Part shown: piece after piece, positions 12,075-30,217 of the stretch | Layout of the letters: each line of letters starts with the position of its first letter | Position numbering within the stretch: the stretch's first letter is position 1 | Assembly (NCBI GenBank): GCA_000182565.2 | Contig: KQ257461.1 | Strand: one strand, 5' to 3' | Length of the DNA: 50,801 bases | DNA from: Spizellomyces punctatus DAOM BR117 | Lineage: Eukaryota | Notes under the pieces: generated by a model | Databases searched by the model: none | Told to the model about the DNA's origin: nothing | What the model saw: the letters and a program-made list of their open reading frames with translations, nothing else | Made by a program: the position numbers and the translations under genes

Positions 12075-14038
12075 ATGGCATTTTGGCATTGGAGCATCGT
12101 CACCGCTTCACGCTCTTTGGGACACGGACTCTGTGCACGTCGCTGCGTCATGGCCTTTTCAACCCACGTTCATGTCGAGTCTGGTGCCAAGAGTTGGTCG
12201 TTGCCGACGGGCCTATTCATCAATAATGCATTTATTCCCTCTGTGACGGGAAGCAAGTTTGACACAATTGACCCGTGAGTCTATGGTAAACGAGAGCATG
12301 CCATGGCATTTCTGCTACAGGGTGGCAAGTGATGCTAAATTGGCATGTTGAAACACCCAAGGTCTACAGGGGACGTCATCACTCAAGTCTTTCAAGCTGG
12401 AAAGGAAGACGTGGACATTGCTGTGACAGCTGCACAAAAGGCTCTAGCAACATGGCAGAGGTACATTGTAACCGATTTTGACAGTGTCGCCATATTTATG
12501 TGAAAATAACGACGTGAATGGTCAGTATACCTGCGGCAGAAAGGGGCAAGTGCCTTTTGAAACTCGCAGATTTGATTGAACAAAACAGCACCGAACTCGC
12601 CGAACTTGAATCTTTGGATAATGGCAAAACAGTAAAGGATGCCATCGGAGACGTCCAAGGTGTCGTCGAAGTATACCGTTACTACGCTGGCTGGACAGAT
12701 AAGATTGCTGGACAGACCTTGGACATTGACCCAAAGCTGCATACATATACACGAGTCGAGCCTCTCGGTGTCGTCGGACAAATCATACCATGGAATTACC
12801 CTCTCATGATGCAGGCGTGGAAGCTTGCCCCAGCCTTGGCATGTGGAAATACTATTGTCATGAAGGTACAAGCAATCGCTGATTTTCCACGTTAGTTTCG
12901 ATCATGGGGCTGTAGCAATCACATCTAGACTTCTGAAAAAACGCCCCTCAGTGGCCTCAAAGTCGCCGAACTCATTGCAAAAGCCGGATTCCCTCCAGGT
13001 GTCGTCAACATCCTGTCTGGGTTCGGTACTCCTTGTGGTGAAGCCATCGCGCGACACCGCGACATTGCCAAGATTGCCTTTACAGGCTCAACAGCCGTCG
13101 GAAGAAAGATTATGATCATGGCCGCAGAAAGCAATTTGAAAAAAGTGACCTTGGAGTTGGGAGGCAAAAGCCCAAATATTGTCTTTGATGATGCGGACCT
13201 GGATCAAGCGGTTGAAGCATGCTTTGGAGGCATCTTTGAGAACATGGGACAAAATTGCTGTGCTGGTTCCAGAGTATTTGTGCAAGCAGGGATTTACGAT
13301 CTTTTTGTTGAAAAGTTCAGGCAAAAGGTGTGTTATGCACCTGTCAGTGATGAATCATGACCGCGTTGTAAAGCATGGCCTTCTCCAAAGATGTCTCAGG
13401 CAAAGCTCGGCCATCCTCGCGATCCCACAGCAACTATGGGACCGCTTGTTGATGCTCAGCAATTCAACTCTGTCAGCTCCTATATATCCATCGGCGTCAA
13501 AGAGGGAGCCACATTAGCCTATGGTGGAAAACGACAAGGCACCAAAGGCTTCTTTCTCGAGCCTGCTCTATTCACTGACGTTACTGATAGCATGCGAATC
13601 TACCAAGAGGAAATCTTTGGACCAGTTGCCTGTGTTGTAAAATTTGAGACTGAGGAAGAGGTTCTGAAAAAGGCCAATGCAACAAGTTACGGCTTGGCGG
13701 CTGCTGTTCACACGAATGATTTAAGACGGGCGGTGAGGATGGAGAAAGGGATGAAGGCGGGAAACGTGTGGGTCAATTGTTATAATTGTGCGTCGTTTCC
13801 ATTTTGCTCGCTCCCGCATCGTATGAATGCTCATGTGATATCGCCAACCTCGTGTAGTGACCCTGCCGCAATTACCGTTTGGCGGATTCAAACAATCTGG
13901 AATTGGGCGGGAACTTGGAGAGTATGGATTACGAGAATATACTCGTAAGTTACAATCGTTCTTTTTGTACCCACGCTTAGAAACCAATACATCCCGAATA
14001 TTACAGAGGTCAAGTCGGTAGTCATGAATCTTGCTTGA
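12075..14038 (+). CDS. NAD(P)-dependent aldehyde dehydrogenase (ALDH1/2 family), multi-exon
   Basis: [36 protein letters not shown] (catalytic Glu), GQNCCAG (catalytic Cys), EEIFGPV and [15 protein letters not shown]. In-frame ATGs at 12075 and 12150. Confidence 0.96.
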
Positions 14039-14142: not shown

Positions 14143-16055
14143 TTACAGACGCGGCCCAAGCATCTGCTCAGGTCTCACCCACTCATCAAATTGTTCAGGT
14201 GTCAACAGTTTGAGCTTAACCGCAGCCTCTTTGAGTGTAGACCCGTCTTTATGGGCCAGTTTGGCGACCTTGGCTGCATCTATCATAAAGGAAAAAGTTA
14301 CAATAAACTTGACTGGCAATAAGGATAACATCATAACATACTCTCATATCCAATCTTTGGATTCAAGGCCGTAACCAACATCAAGCTTTCGTTCATCAAA
14401 GTTTTAATACGATCCAGATTGGGTTTGATTCCTTGCACACAGTTTTTGTTGAACGAGTCGCAAGCATTTGCAAGAAGGGTGGTCGAGTGAATAAAATTCC
14501 GAATGAGGAGGGGTTTGAAGACATTCAACTATAGGACGTCACTGTTGATGAGTCCTTGCTCATCTGGTAGCAATCTGAATCATCGTACCTCAAAGTGGCC
14601 ATTTGATCCTCCAATACTGATCGCGACGTGATTGCCCATTACTTGCGCACAAACCATTGTGAGGGCTTCGCATTGGGTTGGGTTGACCTAGAGCAACGCT
14701 GTTACACGCAGCAAAGACGACAATGGTCACAGAAGAAGAGTACCTTGCCAGGCATGATAGATGACCCAGGCTCATTCTCCGGTAGGCTGAGTTCACCCAG
14801 TCCACATCTGGGTCCAGAACCCAGGAACCGAATATCATTACCAATTTTCATCAAGGAAACGGCAAGGACATTCAAAGCTCCACTGGCTTCCACAATGGCG
14901 TCGTGAGCAGCAAGGGCCTCAAACTGGTTAAAAATGATTAGCGCGCGCATATTTCGTACAAGAATGCCGTCCCCACTAACCTTGTTAGGAGCAGTTTTAA
15001 ACTCCACGCCAGTAATTCTCGAGATCTCCGCAGCAACCTTGGTATCAAAACCAGCTCTCGTGTTCAGTCCCGTTCCCACTGCCGTACCTCCCTGTGCCAA
15101 CAAGCTCAATCTAGGAATCCCGGCTTTAACTCGTTCGATCCCATAAGCAATTTGCTGGGCGTATCCAGAGAACTCTTGGCCGAGGGTAAGTGGTGTTGCG
15201 TCTTGAGTGTGGGTTCGACCAATTTTTATAATATTTGACCACCCTTTGGCGTGTGCATCCAGTGCAGTATGAAGACGGCGCAAGGCAGGCAGAAGGAGCT
15301 TATAAAGCGCTAGTGTGGCTGCAACGTACATTGCTGTAGGAAATCTATCGACTCGTTAATGAGAAACATTGACACCTCAGATCAGCAATCGACAAACAAA
15401 CGTACGTGTCATTCGAGGATTGACTCATATTAACGGTATCATTCGGATGAACTGGCTTTTGTGCTCCAAGAGGCTGTCCCAGAATTTCATTTGCACGGTT
15501 GGCAATCACCTCATTCACGTTCATATTCGTTTGAGTTCCTGACCCCGTTTGCCAAACGACGAGAGGAAACTCGTCATTCAATTTACCATCAATAACCTTT
15601 TAAATACAAAGCAATAAACAAACCGTCTCAATTCCGAATACCACAATATGGCATTACACGCACCTCATCCGCAGCTTTGATAATCGCATCACCAAGTTTC
15701 TTATCTAACCCATAAGTAACATTCACAATTGCTGCAGCCTTTTTGACGATACCCAGCGCCTGAATCACTTCGAGGGGCATGCGGTCACCAGGGCCTCCAA
15801 TCTCAAAGTTTTGGAGAGACCGTTCAGTTTGTGCTCCTTTAAACGTGATGAATGGTATCAGTTTAAACCAAGGACCGAATCACGAAATTTCCTTACCCCA
15901 GTACTTGTTGGCGGGGACCTTTATCTCTCCAAAGGTATCATGCTCTATGCGATACTGTTGCTGAAAAACAATCTGCTGGTGAACCAGGAAACAAAGGCTC
16001 GCGAACGGGCTGCCGTATTTATGAACAGCGAGCTCTGGACGTTACTTACAGTCAT
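14143..16055 (-). CDS. FUM1: Class II fumarate hydratase, multi-exon
   Basis: [65 protein letters not shown] signature and [11 protein letters not shown]. The start at 16055 assumes a 6-nt first coding exon. Confidence 0.95.
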
Positions 16056-19587: not shown

Positions 19588-19865
19588 GTTTAGGAGCTAG
19601 CAATCAGGACATGTTGACCGTAAGATATGGGGTTCAGGAGACAGAAACCCGCATTCTACTTGCAGACGACAAACGAAAGTATACTGGGTTTTGATTCACA
19701 AATAACACAACAGGGGCTCGGCATGCGCGTATGAGCAGTACAATGGTAATATACACCAGGAAATAGAGCACAATGATTTATTCATATATATGTTGGATTT
19801 CATAATTTTCATATACCATGCCTCCATGACTCCACGTTGATCATACTTGGAAACCGACACCGACT

Positions 19866-22800
19866 CTACGTCGCAGAACTCTCCACCATGGAGGCGGTTG
19901 CTTTAGAGTACCTCGGCTTGAGGGTTTGGGCCACCAATGCTAAAAATGGCCTCATTTTCTCTTTGGAAGGAAACTCTACAATATGCGACGCTGTTTGGTC
20001 CGCCTTCATTTTCAAACTTAATCTGGTAGCAGAGTTACTCGACGTGGAAAATGAGCCGCTAGCGGCCGCGGACTCCGTTGTAAGAACATCTACAATTATC
20101 TCCGAGAGTTTGAAGGAGACCAGAACTTTGCTGCTCCTAACGCTCTCAAGGAAGAGGAGCAGGTCCAGTTCGCAGAGCGCGCATAGTGTGGCTGATTGCC
20201 ATTGGGCACTATGAAAAGAGTGGCGATTCAGTTTTAGGGAAAAAAAAAAAAAATAATGTATAAGCACGTATGTACCCAAAGCGGTCTTGCCGAAGCCCGA
20301 CTTCACACACAGTCGGATGTACGGCGTGAACATGGAACGATGATACGTGTTCCGGATTCGACTTCCGTCTGACGCTGCGGAAGCGGTGACCGCCGACCTG
20401 AGCCCCCGACGTGCGAGAACCTTGACTGTCTGAATTCGCTCGCACCTTCCATACTTCTCTCAGGCGCGGGAGGAACAGAATTAGGCTTATACCTGTCGAA
20501 ATGATGAACATTATAAGACAAGTGAGCAGTCTCTGGGTTCCGCGTTCAGTGTCCGTCTGCATTGGCAAAATGTAGGCTGCTGGCACTGCAAAAATCATCA
20601 ATATGGTTACAATATAAATCGAAAAGCCGATGGTCTTGCTTTCTCCGAAACGATTGTACGCCTTGCGGGTGGCATAAGCGAGGAACAAGCAGAGGAAAAG
20701 CAAGAGAGCGTTGAAACAGTAGAGGAGGACAAGAAGGCCGGTGTATAAGCCCTTTTTCTCGGGAGCCACGCCGCATTCCTGGTAAATAGCTCCCGTTGTC
20801 GCGTTTTCGATGGATACGACTACAGAAGGTGGCGCCAATGCAACCAATAGGCCTGTTAAAATCAACTCTGCAACGACAATCCCAAGGGTAGAGCCGATAA
20901 GGACAGAGTTGCGCGCGATGGAGATTCGGGTTTTCCGTTGATACCCGAATATAAGATATATGCGCCAGAGCTTCATCATCATCATTCTGCCAAATAAGCG
21001 CAGGATGATGATAAGTTCTACATAAGCCAAATTCATTTCAAATGATGTACATACCCAAAGGCAGCTCCAAAGGCAACAGGCGGGAAGAACAGCCTGATTT
21101 TACAGGATGCATCAGTTGGCATACCCGCGTAAGGAAGGATTCCAATGTTGCCAAGCAGACAGCCCATGAGAAGCACCCAGCAGCAGTTAGGGGCGATAGC
21201 TCTGATTTGAGGACGATGCCGTGCAAGAAACGTCAGGCACCACACTGCACAGACAATTAAAAGTCCGACAGCCATGAGACTAATGCAGATTATTCCAAAG
21301 GCATCGTTCTTTGCGAGACGATAGCCATCCGCTGCCTCGGAGCAGTCGCCCTTCTGATAATTGATAAATCCGGGATCACAAATGCATTGCGCGGCTGGAT
21401 CTTGGAAAGGTAAATCGAGGAAACAGTGTCCGTGTTTGCATCCCGCTGAGGAGCCGATTGGAAAGTCGCAGTATGTCTGTCCGAACATAATCTGGTCGTT
21501 TTGTGTTAAAAATTCGAGTATGTCAGTACCACGTTTGACCATCTCTGGTGTGAGTGGAGCGAAATTGTTCTGAATGGCGATGTCCTAAAGAAATGCACCG
21601 TGGAGAGAATGCGTCAATCTTCAGCGTTGCTGGCGCAATAAGTCATCATTGAACTACAACGTACACTTCCGCGAGTCAAAGTCCAGTACAAGTATCGCAA
21701 TGTCCATCTTGCAGTCAGAATGTCTGATCCAATCGCGTTATTGCGTAGAACATAGTTGGTGTACACTGTGATGGGGTATGCTTGTGGATAGGGTGTGTCG
21801 ATAGTGTCGCTTGTGGAGCTACTATTCACGTTACTTGACATGGCAGCCTGAAGGTGTCATAATCCTGAGTTTCATGGCTCATTACCAGCAGGCTGGTCAC
21901 AACCTACCTGCATCGATTGCCAAGTAGCCGTAACGATAGTTCCGTTACGGTTGATGATGTTGGCCACCCCTATACTGTTGGCCCCAGTCTTATTTGCCTT
22001 GTATATCTCATTCTAATGAATGCGCCGTCTGGTCAGCACAGTCGCCTAAACAACCTTGCGAAGAACAGCATGGATAGCTAGGTGCTCACCAGGTCCATGT
22101 AAGAAATTGCGTATGGTATTGAGGCCACGAGCATTCCAACAGCCTCATTCGTGTTCGCCACGAACACCTGGGTACCATTGGTGATGTTATGCCAATTGAC
22201 GCTGGAGCTAATAGGTCCGGGAAAGCTTGGATCAAACGAATGCAGCGCCTTCACAAAGTTGGCCGTCGTTCCCGATCCAGGTTGACGGACCACCAGGGTG
22301 ATTTTAGGCGTCGTCGCCGATGGTAACGCATTTGCAAGCGTCGGATTCAACACTTGAAGCGCCGGATCTGACCATGTGGTCAGCTTTCCACTAAAAATAT
22401 CGGCAATGTTTTGACGACTCAAATTGAGAGGCTCGCTCAGCTGAGGTATCTGATAAGCTAGAGCAATGGCGCCGGCAACCGCGGGAAAGTACGTCACACT
22501 GGTATCGTTGGTGACCGGAGGGATATCGGAGCCCGAAAAAGCTAAACTTCCGGCTTGAAGCTGTGCCAAACCGACTGAACTACTGCTGGAAATGTAGGAG
22601 ATCTGAACATCTGACCCTATGATTACTTGTTATTCAGGTTTTGTTATATGCAAGCTCTCCAGGATAGCAACGTAGCTCACCATGCTCCTTCAAAAATGAT
22701 TGAATCCACTGTTCATAGAGACTTGAGGGAAAGCTAGCCCCACCGCCATAAACATCCACTGACGACCATGTCAGTGCGGCAATCTCTGCACGTTATTCTC

Positions 22801-22891
22801 TAAAGGCTTTACCTCTGGCCCCAATTCCTGGTAATAAGGGAAGCAAGCCCATGATTACGACTAGCAATTTCTGCCATGGCGTCGTTGACAT
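19866..22891 (-). CDS. Class C-type GPCR with signal peptide, PstS-like phosphate-binding domain, EGF-like module and 7TM domain
   Basis: Spliced reading MSTTPWQKLLVVIMGLLPLLPGIGA-RVDVYGGGASFPSSLYEQW, then FSGSD, LSRQNIADIFSGKLTTWSDPAL, VRQPGSGTT and AYPI (PstS fold). Then GCKHGHC...CICDPGF (EGF-like). Then IRAIAP, KLWRIYLIF, LAYATRKAYNRFGESKTIGFSIY and LFLPRL (7tm_3-type motifs). Confidence 0.85.
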
Positions 22892-23399: not shown

Positions 23400-24673
23400 A
23401 TGATGGGGGCTCCGAGAACTGTTACCTTTTCCCCGGAAGAAGTTGCACGTCACAACACTGCAAAGTCGGTGTGGGTTATCGTAAACAAAAAAGGTAAATT
23501 GCAAAGAGATGCGGCGGNNNNNNNNNNNNNNNNNNNNNNNNNNNNNNNNNNNNNNNNNNNNNNNNNNNNNNNNNNNNNNNNNNNNNNNNNNNNNNNNNNN
23601 NNNNNNNNNNNNNNNNNNNNNNNNNNNNNNNNNNNNNNNNNNNNNNNNNNNNNNNNNNNNNNNNNNNNNNNNNNNNNNNNNGGGGCCAAGATGTCACCAA
23701 AATTATGAAAGACGAACTTGAACACCTTCACTCGGACGCTGCTTATGACATGCTAGAAACCTACTTTATTGGGGACCTTGCAACTGACGGCTCCGCTCAA
23801 AAACCCATAGTTCCCCTCGAGTCCGATAAGAATACGTCGACGCTCGGAAAGAAGGAGGCATTCATCGATGTGAGACAGCCGATGCTGGCTCAAGTTTGGA
23901 CCAAGAACTTTAAAAAGGACGTTTACATGAAACAAGTCCATATTCCCCGGCACGTTAACTACTCTGCACCGATCTTTGGACACCCTGCTCTTGAGATGTT
24001 TACAAAGACGCCTTGGTGGGTCGTCCCCTTGGTGTGGACACCGCTTTGGGCGACATGCGTATACTATGCCATCGGAGCAGTTTCTCTTGCCGGGACACTC
24101 ATGTTGGCCCCTATTGGCTTGCTGATTTGGACAATCATCGAATACACACTCCATCGGTTCCTTTTCCATGTCGATGACATCTTACCTGACAATAGATATG
24201 CGTTGACTGCTCACTTTTTGCTTCATGGAATTCATCACTATCTACCGATGGACAGGTATGCACTTGTTTTTCTCTCTGTTTTACCAAGCCCTCGGATAAC
24301 TGAACCCTTCTTGTTCAGAATGCGGCTCGTCATGCCTCCAGCTCTATCACTTTTCCTCGCGGTATGGATATGGACGTTCTTCAACTCCTTCCTCCCCACG
24401 CCTATAGTATTGGGATTGGCAACAGGAACTATTCCAGGCTATGTTGGATACGACTTGATACATTGTAAGTTCTCGAAAGAAGTCTCATATTTGTGAGTGA
24501 ACCTGTCTTATAAAGCCTCCCCTTAAGATTATCTCCATCATGGTCGTCCTTTTGCTGCGCACCTTCGCGAAATGAAAACATACCATCTGGACCACCATTA
24601 TAAGGACGCAAATCTCGGATATGGAATTACTAGTAAATTATGGGATCGGGTCTTCGGAACCGTTCTGTATTAA
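23400..24673 (+). CDS. SCS7: Cytochrome b5-fused sphingolipid fatty acid alpha-hydroxylase
   Basis: EEVARHNTAKSVWV and HSDAAYDML (b5 domain, interrupted by the N gap), LEMFTKTPWWVVP, His boxes EYTLHRFLFH, HFLLHGIHH and HLDHHYK, and RLVMPP. Confidence 0.94.
23518..23681. other. Assembly gap (N run) inside SCS7
   Basis: Run of n characters. Confidence 1.
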
Positions 24674-26634: not shown

Positions 26635-28113
26635 ATGAAAACTCATGTCAACCTTGTTGTTGTCGGGCATCTTGGATCCGGAAAATCGACTGTGCTAGGG
26701 CACTTGATGTACAAATGGTTTGTTCCTCTCGTTGTGGAAGAGCGATAGTTTTATATCGTAGGGGTCTCATTGCTACAATGACAGTGGAGCTATTGACAAA
26801 AAAGACTTTGATAAAATTGAATGGGAGGCCATGAAGAAAGACAAACCGGAATTGAAGTATGCCTGGATTTTGGACAAACTCCGTGAAGAGCGTGAAAGAG
26901 GAACAACCATCGATATTGCTTGCGATAAGCTGGAGACGCCTCATCGCTTTGTGACCGTCAGTGATGCACCCGGCCACAAGGACTTTATCAAAAACTTGAT
27001 CACTGGGACTTCACAGGTTGCCCAAGTCTTGAGTGTTGACTGCGTCAATCGTTTTCGATGCTAACCGCCAAATATCGATGGTCCTAGGCTGATTGCGCCC
27101 TCCTGGTAGTTTCCGCAGCAGTAAACGAATATGAAACTGGTATTGCCCGCGAAGGGCAAACTAGGGAACATGCGCTTCTTGCGCACACCATGGGAGTTAG
27201 ACAACTCATTGTTGCCGTGAATAAGATGGATCAGGTCAACTGGTCACAAGAGAGATTCGAAAAAGTTCAAAAGGAATTAAGCGATATGATGGAGAAAATT
27301 GGGTACAAGCCGGAATCTGTTCCGTTTGTTCCTGTCTCTGGGTGGACCGGGGATAATCTAGTTGACCCCTCACCTAACTTGCCTTGGTTTTCCCGATGGA
27401 AAAAGCAAACCAAAAGCGGTGCTGTTGAAGGCAAAACTCTTTTGGACGCCATCGACACGATCGAGCCCCCCATACGTCCAAAAGATAAACCCCTCCGTTT
27501 ACCTATCCAAGATGTCTTCAAACTGAGCGACATTGGCACAGTGGCTGTTGGAAAGGTGGAGACTGGTGTCCTTCACCCGGGCAAGAAGGTGTTGCTTACC
27601 CCCGGCGGCATCACTACGATCGTCAAGTCGATTCAAATGCACCACGAACCCCTAAACGAGGCTCTTCCGGGCGACAATGTGGGGTTAAGCGTGGATCTTT
27701 CTATCAGAGACATCCATCGCGGCATGGTTGTTTCTAATCCGAAAGATGAGCCGGCCAAAGAAGCTGCATCTTTCATAGCTCAAATAATCATTCTCGAGCT
27801 TCCTGGGCGGATCGAAGTAGGATACACTCCCGTGATCGACGTTCACACATCGCACGTTGCATGCAAGTTTGATGAATTGATTGAAAAGGTTGATAGACGA
27901 TCGGGGAGAACGATTGCTGAGCATCCAAAATTTCTCCAAATGGGTGATGCGGCCATTGTCAAATTGAAGCCCACCAAGCCGTTGGTTGTGGAGGCATATG
28001 CGGACTATCCGGCACTGGGGAGATTTGCCATGCGGGATATGAGGGTGACTATAGCTGTTGGAATCGTGAAAAGTGTGGAAAAGGTGAGCGGAGCAGACAT
28101 TCAGAGCATATGA
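26635..28113 (+). CDS. TEF1: Divergent translation elongation factor 1-alpha (2 introns)
   Basis: [93 protein letters not shown] and [16 protein letters not shown]. Confidence 0.9.
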
Positions 28114-29167
28114 CGGAGAGCGGGCAAGCCAAATGAATGAACAAGAGCTGAGCGTAGCAATCGTCTATCTGTGAGGTGTACGTCGATAGGAAAATCTAGC
28201 ATGTGCGTGTATGCGAGGCACGTTGGTGTAAAATGTCCTTCGATAGGATAATTCTAGCATATGCGTGTAGGCCAGGCACATTGGCTACCATTCTCACTTT
28301 CCAGCAGGTCACAGATCGGTTCGCATATAATTTATTTCTCAAAACTGACGAATTACCCCCTCCATAACATTTCAATGTTCGACCTTTCCGCTATTCTTAT
28401 CGCTACTGAAGCGATTCCACTTTTTGTACTGGCCAGTGGGATCATAAATCTTTGTTGTTTCGTGTTGGCTTACCGTGTTCCAAGGCTGCGGGTTTTTGCT
28501 TGTGAAAATGGTGAGCATGTACTAAAAGCGTAACATGTGAAGCTTTCGACTTACGAGCGAGACCAGACCACTGTTTGATGACGTTAATATTACTCTGTTT
28601 TTAGCGAATTGTGGACGGTGGTCTTACCATCAGGACTGACAGACTTGTGAGCCAAAAAGTATCCAACACCAACGACGGCTCCGCCCATGACGGCTACGAG
28701 AGGATACACCTATGTCCCGCACATTGTAAGTGACCGGTCGGTCCGGGCCAGAAAAGAGTACGTACCCCAAAAGGAATTTTCAGTAATCCACCAGCCATGT
28801 CGTCAAAATGCTGCCTCTGCTAACATTTTCGGTTATCTGCTGTATGAGCATCAAAAACTTGCACAGAGGTTCTTACCAAATGCTTGTTTGGAATCCAAAG
28901 ACAGAAACAAGTGGTAAAGGACTGTTAAAGGAAGGCAACGTGCATATATCTATTTATATTCTTATATGACCCTTCTTCCTCTATTCTTCCGATGATGACA
29001 TCACTAGAGGTGGCATTCCCCCCTGCACCGTTCTTATTGTCCTTCAACAGACGACTTGCGTCGGGACTGATGACCAGAACGCGTACGTAAGCAAAGTAGC
29101 TTGGCAATCGATGACTCACTTTCCAGAGGTTCACTCTGACGGGTTGCAGAACTTGGTTATCCTGTAA

Positions 29168-30217
29168 ATGTCTACCGCCGCAAGCTCACGATCGTTCAAG
29201 TTGGCACTTGTTCAATTGCTGGTTACGTCCAGCAAAGAGGCAAACCTTCGAAACGCTCGCTCCAAAGTTCTTGAAGCTGCAAAAAATGGTGCAAACGTCG
29301 TTGTTTTGCCAGGTACGGCCGAACCGTTATTTCGGGAATTACTTTGCTCTTAACAAGAAGGCATTTTCAATAGAGTGTTTTAACTCTCCATACGGTACCC
29401 AATACTTTCCTCAATATGCCGAGCCCCTTGAGAACAGTCCATCGTCCCGCGCCTTGCAGGAAATGGCTAGAGACGCAAAGGTCTACCTAATCGGTGGGTC
29501 ATTTCCTGAGGAGAAGGAGAAAAAGTATTATAACACTTGTACAATATGGGATCCGAAGGGTGAACGACTGGGTGTCCATAGAAAGGTGCGATAGAGTCTT
29601 GTGTTTTGCATCTGAATAGATCTCCTCAAACTCACTATTTTGCGTAGATCCATCTCTTCGATATTGACGTTCCGAACAAGATCACATTCAAGGAATCTGA
29701 AATACTTTCCCCCGGATCATCCCCGACATCATTTTTGACACCATGGGGAAGAATTGGAGTAGGCATCTGTTACGATATTCGGTTTCCTGAACTGGCCATG
29801 ATTGCTGCGAGAAAGGGTTGCGTGGCTATGATATATCCTGGAGCTTTTAATATGACGACTGGACCATTGCATGTAAGAGACGTTTTGTGTGTCGCGTCAT
29901 TATCTGTGATAGTGAGTGGGAGCTGATTCTCAAATCAACCATCACAGTGGGAACTTCTTCAACGCGCTCGTGCCGTTGACAATCAAATCTATGTCAGCGC
30001 ATGTTCTCCTGCCCGTGATCCCAACTCTTCCTATATTGCTTGGGGCCACTCTACAGTCGTTGATCCACTGGGTGTCGTCGTCGCTACAACGGATGAAAAA
30101 GAAAGCATTACTTATGCCGATATTGATTTGGAAAAGATTGATGAAGCTCGACAGAATATTCCCGTGACCTCGCAGAGGAGGTTCGATGTATATCCGGATG
30201 TGAGTGCAGGAAATTGA
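29168..30217 (+). CDS. NIT3: Omega-amidase (nitrilase family, NIT2/Nit3-like), multi-exon
   Basis: [18 protein letters not shown] (Glu), HRKIHLFDID (Lys), [10 protein letters not shown] (Cys), [14 protein letters not shown] and RAVDNQ. Confidence 0.93.

What the first reader, a model, noticed from the sequence alone, without database searches (positions are those of the whole stretch)
19866..22891. PstS-like domain fused to a class C GPCR: candidate fungal phosphate receptor
Seen: signal peptide, PstS-fold domain, EGF-like linker and 7TM in one spliced ORF. Counterparts of the E. coli PstS phosphate contacts are kept: GASF (T10/F11), SSSVG (S38), GSD (D56) and RQPGSGT (R135, S139-G140-T141), with D137 replaced by Pro. 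Known: animal class C GPCRs use a type I Venus flytrap domain whereas PstS is a type II binding protein, and early-diverging fungi have class C receptors with varied ectodomains. Inference: a receptor for extracellular phosphate or a phospho-ligand, for example in zoospore chemotaxis or encystment, with a possibly bacterial-derived ectodomain.
Basis: partly seen in the sequence, partly recalled or inferred. Interest (0 to 1): 0.82.

Follow-up and report, generated by a model that had tools for sequence, protein, structure and literature searches.

The report
Chytrid receptor with phosphate-binding head
A soil chytrid fungus carries one gene that joins a bacterial-type phosphate-binding domain to a glutamate/GABA-B-type seven-helix receptor, which makes it a testable candidate for a cell-surface sensor of external phosphate.

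Summary
Window 19866-22891 (minus strand) is an 8-exon gene of Spizellomyces punctatus DAOM BR117. One exon (21054-21584) holds the end of the PstS domain, the linker and TM1-3, so the fusion is not a gene-model artefact.

All eight E. coli PstS phosphate contacts are kept (Thr10 as Ser) and Asp137 is Pro. Across 42 fused relatives the contact columns average 0.88 conservation, against 0.43 for random columns. The predicted ectodomain superposes on E. coli PstS (TM 0.88-0.90).

The fusion is a family: 48 of 72 scanned relatives carry both domains. They come from many chytrids, an aphelid, a blastoclad, Calcarisporiella and Plasmodiophora.

The architecture was listed in one line by Krishnan et al. 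2012 (PBP_like_2 in SPPG_06488). My searches found no printed proposal that it senses phosphate.

Best reading (about 0.6): a receptor for extracellular inorganic phosphate. No binding, signalling, dimer or S. punctatus transcript evidence exists. A recent bacterial origin is not supported. Verdict: a new variant of a known kind, interest about 0.68.

The parts
19866..22891 (-). Whole coding region (8 exons, 7 introns of 54-80 nt) of the 851-aa PstS-head class C receptor (P0001).
22814..22891 (-). Exon 1, aa 1-26: start codon and signal-peptide-like hydrophobic segment.
   Evidence: Hydropathy peak at aa 9-27. Helix 5-19 with low pLDDT in the model. No signal-peptide predictor was available.
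21519..22759 (-). PstS-type (type II periplasmic-binding-protein fold) ectodomain, aa 27-346, spread over exons 2-6.
   Evidence: PF12849 at 93.3 bits. TIGR00975 at 175.8 bits, E 1.1e-51. PDB PstS chains at E down to 2.6e-25. Foldseek TM 0.88-0.90 to E. coli PstS.
22730..22735 (-). Codons S35-F36, counterparts of PstS T10-F11.
   Evidence: Alignment to 2z22; family counts.
22579..22581 (-). Codon S65, counterpart of PstS S38.
22525..22527 (-). Codon D83, counterpart of PstS D56.
22267..22287 (-). Codons R163-Q-P-G-S-G-T169, counterparts of PstS R135 to T141, with D137 replaced by P165.
   Evidence: Read directly; alignment; counts.
21054..21584 (-). Exon 6 (aa 325-501). One uninterrupted exon holds the last PstS helices, the Cys-rich linker and TM1-TM3.
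   Evidence: mapping. (7tm_3 and weak EGF hits on this exon). (the PstS alignment runs to aa 340-346).
21342..21470 (-). Six-cysteine EGF-like stalk, aa 363-405.
   Evidence: Cys positions. All six are kept in 90% or more of 30 relatives. pLDDT 82-90. Pfam EGF is only sub-threshold.
20464..21308 (-). Class C seven-helix domain, aa 417-675 (intron 20986-21053 inside). C485 and C572 are the conserved pair at the TM3 top and extracellular loop 2.
   Evidence: PF00003 at 140 bits. GABA-B1 at 1.2e-13 and mGlu receptors. Seven model helices. C572 invariant and C485 kept in 90% or more. K506, R509, E616 and P674-R675 conserved.
19914..20322 (-). Cytoplasmic PH-fold domain, aa about 723-836 (intron 20208-20274 inside), reached through a low-confidence linker at aa 687-722.
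   Evidence: Model of aa 711-851: pLDDT 81, seven strands plus a C-terminal helix. Foldseek: 44 hits at E <= 1e-3, and every listed row is a PH domain or a PH-containing protein. VIA-align: Z 13.1, rmsd 2.0 A over 92 residues to the Osh3 PH domain. The tail matches 26 of the other 157 stored proteins at E <= 1e-3.

Best explanation
This is a cell-surface receptor of the class C (glutamate/GABA-B) GPCR type. The usual type I Venus-flytrap head is replaced by a PstS-type, type II phosphate-binding domain.

Proposed mechanism:
1. Extracellular inorganic phosphate is enclosed between the two lobes of the head by the same hydrogen-bond donors and the same Asp acceptor as in bacterial PstS. This step is inferred from residue and fold conservation.
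2. Lobe closure is passed through the rigid six-cysteine EGF-like stalk to the seven-helix bundle. This step is inferred by analogy with the cysteine-rich domain of mGlu and CaS receptors.
3. The bundle signals to heterotrimeric G proteins. This step is inferred from conserved class C switch positions and was not tested.
4. The conserved cytoplasmic PH-fold domain probably holds the tail at the membrane or recruits a partner. This step is speculative.

The likely physiological role is reporting external phosphate to the zoospore or thallus.
For: Shown:
- One gene, with the domain junction inside a single exon.
- The same fused architecture in 48 of 72 relatives scanned by Pfam: 3 of 3, 39 of 48, 6 of 21. 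They include independent genome annotations of at least 12 named chytrid species, Amoeboaphelidium, Paraphysoderma, Calcarisporiella and Plasmodiophora. One is a transcriptome-derived complete ORF (P0055).
- The head is PstS and nothing else. Only PstS models hit in NCBIfam. PDB PstS chains match at E down to 2.6e-25. The model (pLDDT mostly 88-95 in the head) matches phosphate-bound E. coli PstS at TM 0.88-0.90 and rmsd 2.3-2.8 A.
- All eight contact positions are kept in this protein.
- In 42 fused relatives the counts are: T10 as S 27 / T 9; F11 as F 33; S38 as S 37; D56 as D 38; R135 as R 36; S139 as S 40; G140 as G 39; T141 as T 34 / S 5.
- Mean conservation of the eight contact columns is 0.88, against 0.43 for random sets of eight columns. 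None of 20,000 random draws was as high.
- Several members of one subclade (P0026, P0028, P0038, P0039) have lost contacts. The fold therefore does not require these residues, and their retention elsewhere points to ligand binding.
- PDB titles show E. coli PstS mutants D137N, D137G and D137T crystallised with phosphate (1quk, 1qui, 1qul), so loss of Asp137 need not abolish binding.
- 7TM: PF00003 at 140 bits. C485/C572, K506, R509, E616 and the TM7 P-[RK] motif are conserved in 30 relatives.
Against: - There are no binding, signalling or expression data for this protein.
- TIGR00975 scores 175.8 bits, under its curated equivalog cut-off of 205.
- The R135-D137 salt link is absent here (Pro). 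It is variable in the fused family (P 13, D 9, G 8, A 5 of 42) but is D in 45 of 57 single-domain relatives.
- From recall, PstS is a monomeric type II binding protein, whereas class C activation is known only for dimers of type I heads. The coupling step is therefore an analogy.
- G-protein coupling and the presence of G proteins could not be checked, because no genome is held for this window.
- Which PstS residues touch phosphate comes from the finding and my recall of the E. coli structures, not from a call.
Confidence: 0.6

Rival explanations
1. The receptor is the same, but the physiological ligand is another tetrahedral oxyanion or a phospho-compound (arsenate, phosphite, a phosphonate, pyrophosphate or a phosphoester) rather than orthophosphate.
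For: The score is below the PstS equivalog cut-off. Asp137 is replaced and that position varies in the family. T10 is Ser in 27 of 42 fused relatives but Thr in 38 of 57 single-domain relatives, so the pocket is not identical. Some paralogues have clearly changed pockets (P0026, P0028, P0039).
Against: All eight contacts are kept, including D83. From recall, D56 is the residue that selects protonated phosphate over sulfate. From recall, the PstS pocket is closed and fits one orthophosphate. No other anion-binding family appears.
Confidence: 0.15
2. Phosphate is a permanently bound structural co-factor, or the head is ligand-independent. The receptor is then regulated by something else, for example a partner subunit, as in GABA-B2 or orphan class C receptors.
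For: From recall, bacterial PstS binds phosphate at about micromolar Kd, which could be saturating in many media. S. punctatus is reported to have 14 glutamate-family receptors that could pair (section 16 of PMC3251606).
Against: Strong family-wide conservation of an exposed ligand pocket is more simply explained by sensing. Phosphate in soil water is often at or below micromolar (general knowledge, not from a call).
Confidence: 0.1
3. The seven-helix part does not act through G proteins. The protein works as a phosphate-dependent scaffold or adhesion-like sensor through its PH-fold tail or other effectors.
For: A conserved PH-fold domain on a receptor tail is unusual. Conserved basic positions R733, R736, K771 and R800 could bind acidic lipids. 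Other PstS heads among the hits are joined to cyclase or channel-like outputs, so outputs are interchangeable.
Against: Class C switch positions are conserved: K506, E616 and the TM7 P-R motif (their roles are recalled). The closest solved relatives are G-protein-coupled GABA-B and mGlu receptors.
Confidence: 0.1
4. The fusion is an annotation artefact: two neighbouring genes were merged.
For: Some relatives do look like merged models: P0010 has an N-terminal Glyco_hydro_47 domain and P0032 has a Homeodomain. No spliced RNA evidence was obtained for S. punctatus.
Against: Exon 6 (21054-21584) is one open frame that holds the end of the PstS domain, the linker and TM1-3. The same junction occurs in 48 of 72 scanned relatives. 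A complete transcriptome ORF carries both domains (P0055).
Confidence: 0.01

Closest known systems
Class C GPCRs of animals (GABA-B1/B2, mGlu receptors, CaSR)
   Same: The 7tm_3 bundle: E 1.2e-13 to GABA-B1, with Foldseek hits to GABA-B, mGlu2 and GPR156. Also shared are a large ligand-binding head of the periplasmic-binding-protein superfold, a conserved Cys pair at the TM3 top and extracellular loop 2, and conserved Lys/Glu switch positions.
   Different: The head is a type II PstS fold, not the type I ANF_receptor flytrap. There is no NCD3G nine-cysteine domain (no Pfam hit); a six-cysteine EGF-like stalk stands in its place. A PH-fold domain sits on the tail. Dimerisation is unknown.
Bacterial PstS (E. 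coli 1ixh/2abh; Yersinia 2z22)
   Same: The fold (TM 0.88-0.90) and all eight phosphate contacts.
   Different: It is covalently joined to a membrane receptor instead of docking on the PstCA ABC transporter. Asp137 is Pro. Identity is about 24%. It is glycosylation-ready and eukaryotic. NCBI's product name 'phosphate ABC transporter, phosphate-binding protein PstS' describes only the head.
Fungal 'Glutamate family' receptors with type II binding-protein heads (Krishnan et al. 2012, PMC3251606; section 16 read)
   Same: The paper lists PBP_like_2 in SPPG_06488 of S. punctatus, alongside LysR_substrate, OpuAC and SBP_bac_1 heads in Allomyces and Spizellomyces. This is the same kind of architecture and very probably this gene. 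P0001 was the only S. punctatus protein with both domains. The locus tag itself could not be checked.
   Different: The paper gives one line of domain listing. It proposes no ligand, makes no residue analysis, has no family survey and mentions no PH tail. The word 'phosphate' occurs 0 times in its main text.
Calcium-sensing receptor as a phosphate-modulated class C GPCR (Centeno et al. 2019, PMC6795806; title and start of abstract seen in the listing)
   Same: A class C receptor whose activity responds to extracellular phosphate.
   Different: In CaSR, phosphate acts on a calcium receptor with a type I head. Here the whole head is a dedicated phosphate-binding fold.
Ionotropic glutamate receptors and receptor guanylate cyclases (recalled)
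   Same: Binding-protein heads reused as eukaryotic receptor modules. Among the hits, PstS heads also occur on kinase-like plus guanylate-cyclase proteins (P0095, P0098, P0106, P0137).
   Different: The output domains differ. Those proteins are unnamed metagenome or eukaryote predictions and were not studied further.

Membership tests
Class C GPCR (Pfam 7tm_3, PF00003) | Profile match above the gathering score | tested here: met
   140 bits against a cut-off of 33.5, covering aa 417-675 and profile positions 4-251 of 251.
Class C GPCR | Seven transmembrane helices, N-terminus outside | tested here: met
   Model helices at 419-444, 456-477, 491-515, 527-551, 576-606, 615-640 and 646-690. Hydropathy peaks agree. 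Signal-like N-terminus and 7 sequons in the head.
Class C GPCR | Conserved disulfide pair between the TM3 top and extracellular loop 2 (feature recalled) | tested here: met
   C572 is invariant and C485 is kept in 90% or more of 30 relatives. The bond itself is not shown.
Class C GPCR | Type I Venus-flytrap head (ANF_receptor, PF01094) | tested here: not met
   No ANF_receptor hit at E <= 1. The head is PBP_like_2/PstS.
Class C GPCR | NCD3G nine-cysteine domain (absent also from GABA-B) | tested here: not met
   No PF07562 hit. There is a six-cysteine linker instead.
Class C GPCR | Obligate dimer | not testable with these tools
   No tool here measures the oligomeric state. It needs SEC-MALS or cross-linking of the expressed ectodomain and receptor.
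Class C GPCR | Coupling to heterotrimeric G proteins | not testable with these tools
   No genome is held for the window, and there is no assay. Only conserved K506, E616 and P674-R675 are seen.
PstS phosphate-binding protein (TIGR00975 equivalog) | Score at or above the curated equivalog cut-off | tested here: not met
   175.8 bits against 205, E 1.1e-51, profile positions 3-310 of 315. The broader PF12849 family is met (93.3 against 27).
PstS phosphate-binding protein | Two-lobe type II fold superposable on solved PstS | tested here: met
   Foldseek E 1.1e-19, TM (target) 0.88-0.90, rmsd 2.3-2.8 A over 334-341 columns.
PstS phosphate-binding protein | Eight phosphate-contact residues T10, F11, S38, D56, R135, S139, G140, T141 (list recalled and given in the finding) | tested here: met
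   S35, F36, S65, D83, R163, S167, G168 and T169 by the printed alignment to 2z22. Seven are identical and one is Thr to Ser.
PstS phosphate-binding protein | Asp137 salt link to Arg135 | tested here: not met
   Pro165. The position varies in the fused family.
PstS phosphate-binding protein | Works with a PstCAB ABC transporter | not testable with these tools
   No genome is held. Covalent fusion to a 7TM domain argues against this role.
PH domain | Seven-stranded sandwich capped by a C-terminal helix | tested here: met
   Model strands and helix. Foldseek top hits are PEPP1, GRK2, Vav1, PLEKHA7 and DAPP1 PH domains at E 4e-5 to 1e-3. VIA-align gives Z 10.6-13.1.
PH domain | Sequence-profile match (Pfam PH) | tested here: not met
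   No PH-family hit at E <= 1 on P0001.
PH domain | Basic phosphoinositide-binding motif in the strand 1-2 loop (recalled) | tested here: inconclusive
   R733 (K/R in 20 of 29) and R736 (K/R in 21 of 29) are conserved, but the canonical pattern is not evident.
EGF-like domain | Six cysteines with C-x-C between the fourth and fifth; profile match | tested here: inconclusive
   The pattern is present and conserved. Pfam EGF gives E 0.023 (exon) and 0.22 (whole protein), below the cut-off.

The most novel reading that the evidence does not exclude
This is the founding, testable member of an old eukaryotic family of dedicated extracellular orthophosphate GPCRs. The architecture is PstS head, EGF-like stalk, class C bundle and, in chytrids, a PH-fold tail. 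The family is spread over zoosporic fungi, aphelids, Calcarisporiella and plasmodiophorids. It belongs to a wider, undescribed set of eukaryotic receptors that put PstS heads on different outputs: 7TM, kinase-like plus guanylate cyclase, and channel-like.
Probability: 0.45. Interest if true: 0.82.

Novelty: new variant of a known kind. Interest (0 to 1): 0.68.

Why it matters
How eukaryotic cells detect phosphate outside the cell is still poorly understood. From recall, yeasts use transporter-receptors. In mammals the sensor is debated; the abstract starts listed say so.

A receptor whose whole head is a dedicated phosphate-binding fold would be a clean, directly testable sensor. The test is to express the head and measure binding, then knock the gene out in a chytrid that, from recall, can be transformed.

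It would also show that class C receptors can be driven by a type II binding-protein head, which bears on how these receptors transmit lobe closure. Chytrids and aphelids are important parasites and decomposers in phosphorus-limited waters and soils, so phosphate sensing could shape their behaviour. The head plus 7TM could also serve as a scaffold for biosensors.

Tried and rejected
1. RNA evidence. Only two runs held parts of the gene, and three contig pieces were laid.
- A 218-nt piece from an RNA run lies on the last exon (19870-20087).
- A 605-nt piece from a run of unknown kind lies at 22012-22616. It runs through intron 3, so it looks like DNA.
- The third piece lies outside the gene.
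- There were no joints, so this says nothing about the transcript.

2. Homodimer of the ectodomain (aa 27-415, two copies, alignment A2). The answer was 'no answer', score 0.00 in both runs. This is neither for nor against binding. The job was accepted only, after many queue-full answers.

No whole genome is held. So S. punctatus G proteins, paralogues and the locus tag could not be checked.

4. A residue-by-residue alignment of the 7TM part to solved class C receptors was not obtained, because the call was not run. Switch residues are therefore named from conservation plus recall.

5. AU test. A tree holding the 24 PstS rows of 7TM-fused proteins as one clade is rejected (p 6.8e-8). The group was named after the tree had been seen, and the intruders include probable truncated models from the same species (P0041, P0068, P0051, P0073). 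I draw no conclusion on the number of fusion events.

6. Bacterial donor. None was identifiable. Only 2 of the 28 single-domain rows carry names (an IMG record and Candidatus Viridilinea). Those 28 rows were 25 random picks from the 57 single-domain hits plus 3 others.

7. Neighbouring genes: aldehyde dehydrogenase, Lyase_1, an EF-1A-like GTPase and CN_hydrolase. There is no functional link.

8. Literature searches.
- 0 papers for PstS + class C + GPCR + fungi.
- 0 papers for chytrid + zoospore + chemotaxis + inorganic phosphate.
- 5 irrelevant papers for PstS + G protein-coupled receptor + eukaryot.
- PBP_like_2 + GPCR gave 2 papers. One is the 2012 listing. The other is an amoebozoan GPCR survey in which the term stands only in the abbreviation table.
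- A 2025 fungal GPCR survey (PMC12842992) has 0 occurrences of PBP, PstS or phosphate.
- Supplements were closed, so domain tables there may list more.
Full report
WHAT IS THERE

The region lies on the minus strand. Its largest exon ORF (window:22078-22629:-) is 100% identical to an 851-aa NCBI protein of Spizellomyces punctatus DAOM BR117, a chytrid fungus (P0001). All 851 residues map to eight exons between 22891 and 19869, with the stop at 19868-19866. The seven gaps are 54-80 nt, and GT...AG ends are visible once split codons are allowed for.

DOMAINS

- Pfam gives PBP_like_2 at aa 29-320 (93.3 bits) and 7tm_3 at aa 417-675 (140 bits), both far above their cut-offs. EGF is only sub-threshold.
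- NCBIfam hits only PstS models in the head. TIGR00975 scores 175.8 bits (E 1.1e-51) over 308 of 315 profile positions, which is under the equivalog cut-off of 205.
- Against solved structures by sequence, PstS chains score E 2.6e-25 to 7.6e-21 over aa 21-346. GABA-B1 scores 1.2e-13 over aa 424-702, followed by mGlu receptors.
- A full-length AlphaFold model built on 30 relatives has mean pLDDT 81.6. The head is mostly 88-95, the stalk 82-90 and the bundle 72-94 apart from the 511-530 loop.
- Foldseek ranks phosphate-bound E. coli PstS first (E 1e-19, TM 0.88-0.90, rmsd 2.3 A). Other PstS and DING proteins follow, then GABA-B, mGlu2 and GPR156.

IS THE FUSION REAL?

Exon 6 (21054-21584, aa 325-501) is one open frame. 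It contains the last PstS helices (the PstS alignments run to aa 340-346), the cysteine-rich linker and TM1-3. The head and the receptor therefore cannot be two genes.

I obtained no spliced RNA evidence for S. punctatus. A relative from a transcriptome assembly is a complete ORF with both domains (P0055).

THE BINDING SITE

The printed alignment to Yersinia PstS (2z22, which carries the E. coli numbering) gives these correspondences:
- S35 = T10 and F36 = F11
- S65 = S38
- D83 = D56
- R163 = R135
- S167 = S139, G168 = G140, T169 = T141
- P165 = D137

That these are the phosphate contacts is taken from the finding and from my recall of the E. coli structures.

I aligned the heads of 42 fused proteins and 57 single-domain relatives. 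The 57 were hits of 300-420 aa. Long multi-domain hits and short fragments were left out.

In the 42 fused proteins the contact positions read:
- T10 position: S 27 / T 9
- F11: F 33
- S38: S 37
- D56: D 38
- R135: R 36
- S139: S 40
- G140: G 39
- T141: T 34 / S 5

The rest are mostly gaps from truncated models. The eight columns average 0.88 conservation, against 0.43 for the domain. None of 20,000 random sets of eight columns reached that value.

Position 137 is free in the fused family (P 13, D 9, G 8, A 5 of 42) but is D in 45 of 57 single-domain relatives. PDB titles show the D137N, D137G and D137T mutants of E. coli PstS crystallised with phosphate.

Several members of one subclade (P0026, P0028, P0038, P0039) have lost contacts. 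That argues that retention elsewhere reflects ligand binding rather than folding.

STALK AND BUNDLE

The head has no cysteine. Six cysteines follow at 363-405 in an EGF-type spacing, each kept in 90% or more of 30 relatives.

In the bundle, C572 is invariant and C485 nearly so. K506 (23 of 24 non-gap rows), R509 (25 of 25), E616 (27 of 30) and the TM7 P-[RK] motif are conserved. I recall these as the class C disulfide, the Lys-Glu lock and the TM7 motif. No residue-level alignment to a solved receptor was obtained.

After a low-confidence linker (aa 687-722), the tail folds into seven strands and a C-terminal helix. The model of aa 711-851 has pLDDT 81, with 85 residues at 90 or above.

Foldseek returns 44 hits at E <= 1e-3, and every listed row is a PH domain or a PH-containing protein: PEPP1, GRK2, Vav1, PLEKHA7, DAPP1 and others. 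VIA-align gives Z 13.1 and rmsd 2.0 A over 92 residues to the Osh3 PH domain, with PH-like folds filling the list. Pfam sees nothing there.

The tail matches 26 of the other 157 stored proteins at E <= 1e-3. All of those that carry names are chytrids. It does not match Amoeboaphelidium, Paraphysoderma, Calcarisporiella, Gorgonomyces or Plasmodiophora. W741, E816, F817 and F826 and the basic positions 733, 736, 771 and 800 are conserved.

A FAMILY, NOT A ONE-OFF

A full search of 1.84 billion representatives gave 6794 hits at E <= 1e-3 and 66 at E <= 1e-30. Of 72 proteins I scanned with Pfam, 48 carry both domains: 3 of 3, 39 of 48 and 6 of 21.

Named members:
- Chytrids: Spizellomyces 'palustris' (two), Nowakowskiella, Phlyctochytrium, Borealophlyctis, Dinochytrium, Polychytrium (five), Blyttiomyces, Rhizophlyctis, Chytriomyces, Gorgonomyces, Cladochytrium.
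- Amoeboaphelidium (Aphelidiomycota).
- Paraphysoderma (Blastocladiomycota).
- Calcarisporiella (Calcarisporiellomycota).
- Plasmodiophora brassicae, which has two tandem heads.

In a careful 70-row tree, the 28 bacterial-like single-domain rows sit on one side of a 100/98 branch. All rows from receptor-linked or named eukaryotic proteins sit on the other. The Spizellomyces head lies inside a 100/99 chytrid clade. This gives no sign of a recent bacterial transfer, and the ultimate origin remains open.

PRIOR KNOWLEDGE

Krishnan et al. 2012 (PMC3251606; section 16 read) report 14 Glutamate-family receptors in S. punctatus and list 'PBP_like_2 (PF12849) domain (in SPPG_06488)'. The word 'phosphate' does not occur in their main text, and SPPG_06488 appears in no other paper of the library.

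P0001 was the only S. punctatus protein with both domains. It is very probably that gene, but I could not check the tag.

My searches found no paper that proposes a PstS-headed GPCR as a phosphate sensor. Supplements were closed.

NCBI names the protein as a component of an ABC transporter. That name fits the head only.

MECHANISM AND VERDICT

Most likely (about 0.6): orthophosphate closes the PstS head, the stalk passes this to a class C bundle, and the bundle signals through G proteins. The PH-fold tail adds membrane or partner contacts.
- Shown: the anatomy, the fold, the conserved pocket and the family.
- Inferred: the ligand, the coupling, the dimer state and the physiology.

This is a new variant of a known kind, namely a class C receptor with a type II, phosphate-specific head. 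It was already catalogued as an architecture but has not been interpreted or tested.

Noticed in passing
window 19914-20322 (minus strand; aa about 723-836 of P0001): A conserved cytoplasmic PH-fold domain at the receptor's C-terminus. It is not in the finding and is not seen by Pfam. It is found in chytrid relatives only.
   Followed up: yes
P0095, P0098, P0106, P0137, P0167, P0092 (hits): PstS-type heads joined to a kinase-like domain plus a guanylate cyclase, or to a cyclase alone. The layout is like animal natriuretic-peptide receptors but with a phosphate-binding head. The source organisms are unnamed.
   Followed up: partly
P0034 (Chromosphaera perkinsii, EukProt), P0067, P0124, P0081: Other PstS-headed architectures: four tandem PstS domains with Ephrin_rec_like repeats and a TRP-like channel region (P0034); PstS plus Ephrin_rec_like (P0067, P0124); two PstS domains plus ANF_receptor (P0081).
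   Followed up: partly
P0026, P0028, P0038, P0039 (unnamed proteins in the clade that holds the Chytriomyces receptor P0024): Paralogues that keep the fold and the 7TM but have lost several phosphate contacts, for example R135 to Q, K or L and S139 to A or K. They are candidates for a changed ligand.
   Followed up: partly
P0041 (Cladochytrium replicatum, 355 aa), P0068 and P0051 (Paraphysoderma sedebokerense): Stand-alone PstS-like proteins in zoosporic fungi that cluster with the receptor heads of related species. They may be secreted binding proteins or truncated gene models.
   Followed up: no
P0010 (Dinochytrium), P0032: Relatives with an N-terminal Glyco_hydro_47 domain or a Homeodomain ahead of the PstS head. 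These are most likely merged gene models in draft annotations.
   Followed up: no
P0055, P0057, P0058, P0065, P0076, P0077, P0089, P0101: A second form of the fusion with about 350-500 extra residues between the first PstS domain and the 7TM. In P0055, P0057 and P0058 (Plasmodiophora) the extra part is a second, more diverged PstS domain.
   Followed up: partly
window 19777-20214 (+ strand): A 145-aa stop-to-stop frame antisense to the last exon. It has no Pfam hit and is probably chance.
   Followed up: partly
window about 23500-23700: The stop-to-stop frames listed across this stretch translate as long runs of X, which indicates an assembly gap (run of N). It lies just upstream of the receptor gene, inside the divergent neighbour ORF 23498-24496 (+), which gave no Pfam hit at E <= 0.001.
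   Followed up: no
window 12929-13948, 14702-15355, 27088-28113, 29115-29594: The neighbours are housekeeping genes: aldehyde dehydrogenase, a Lyase_1 family enzyme, an EF-1A-like GTPase and a CN_hydrolase.
   Followed up: partly
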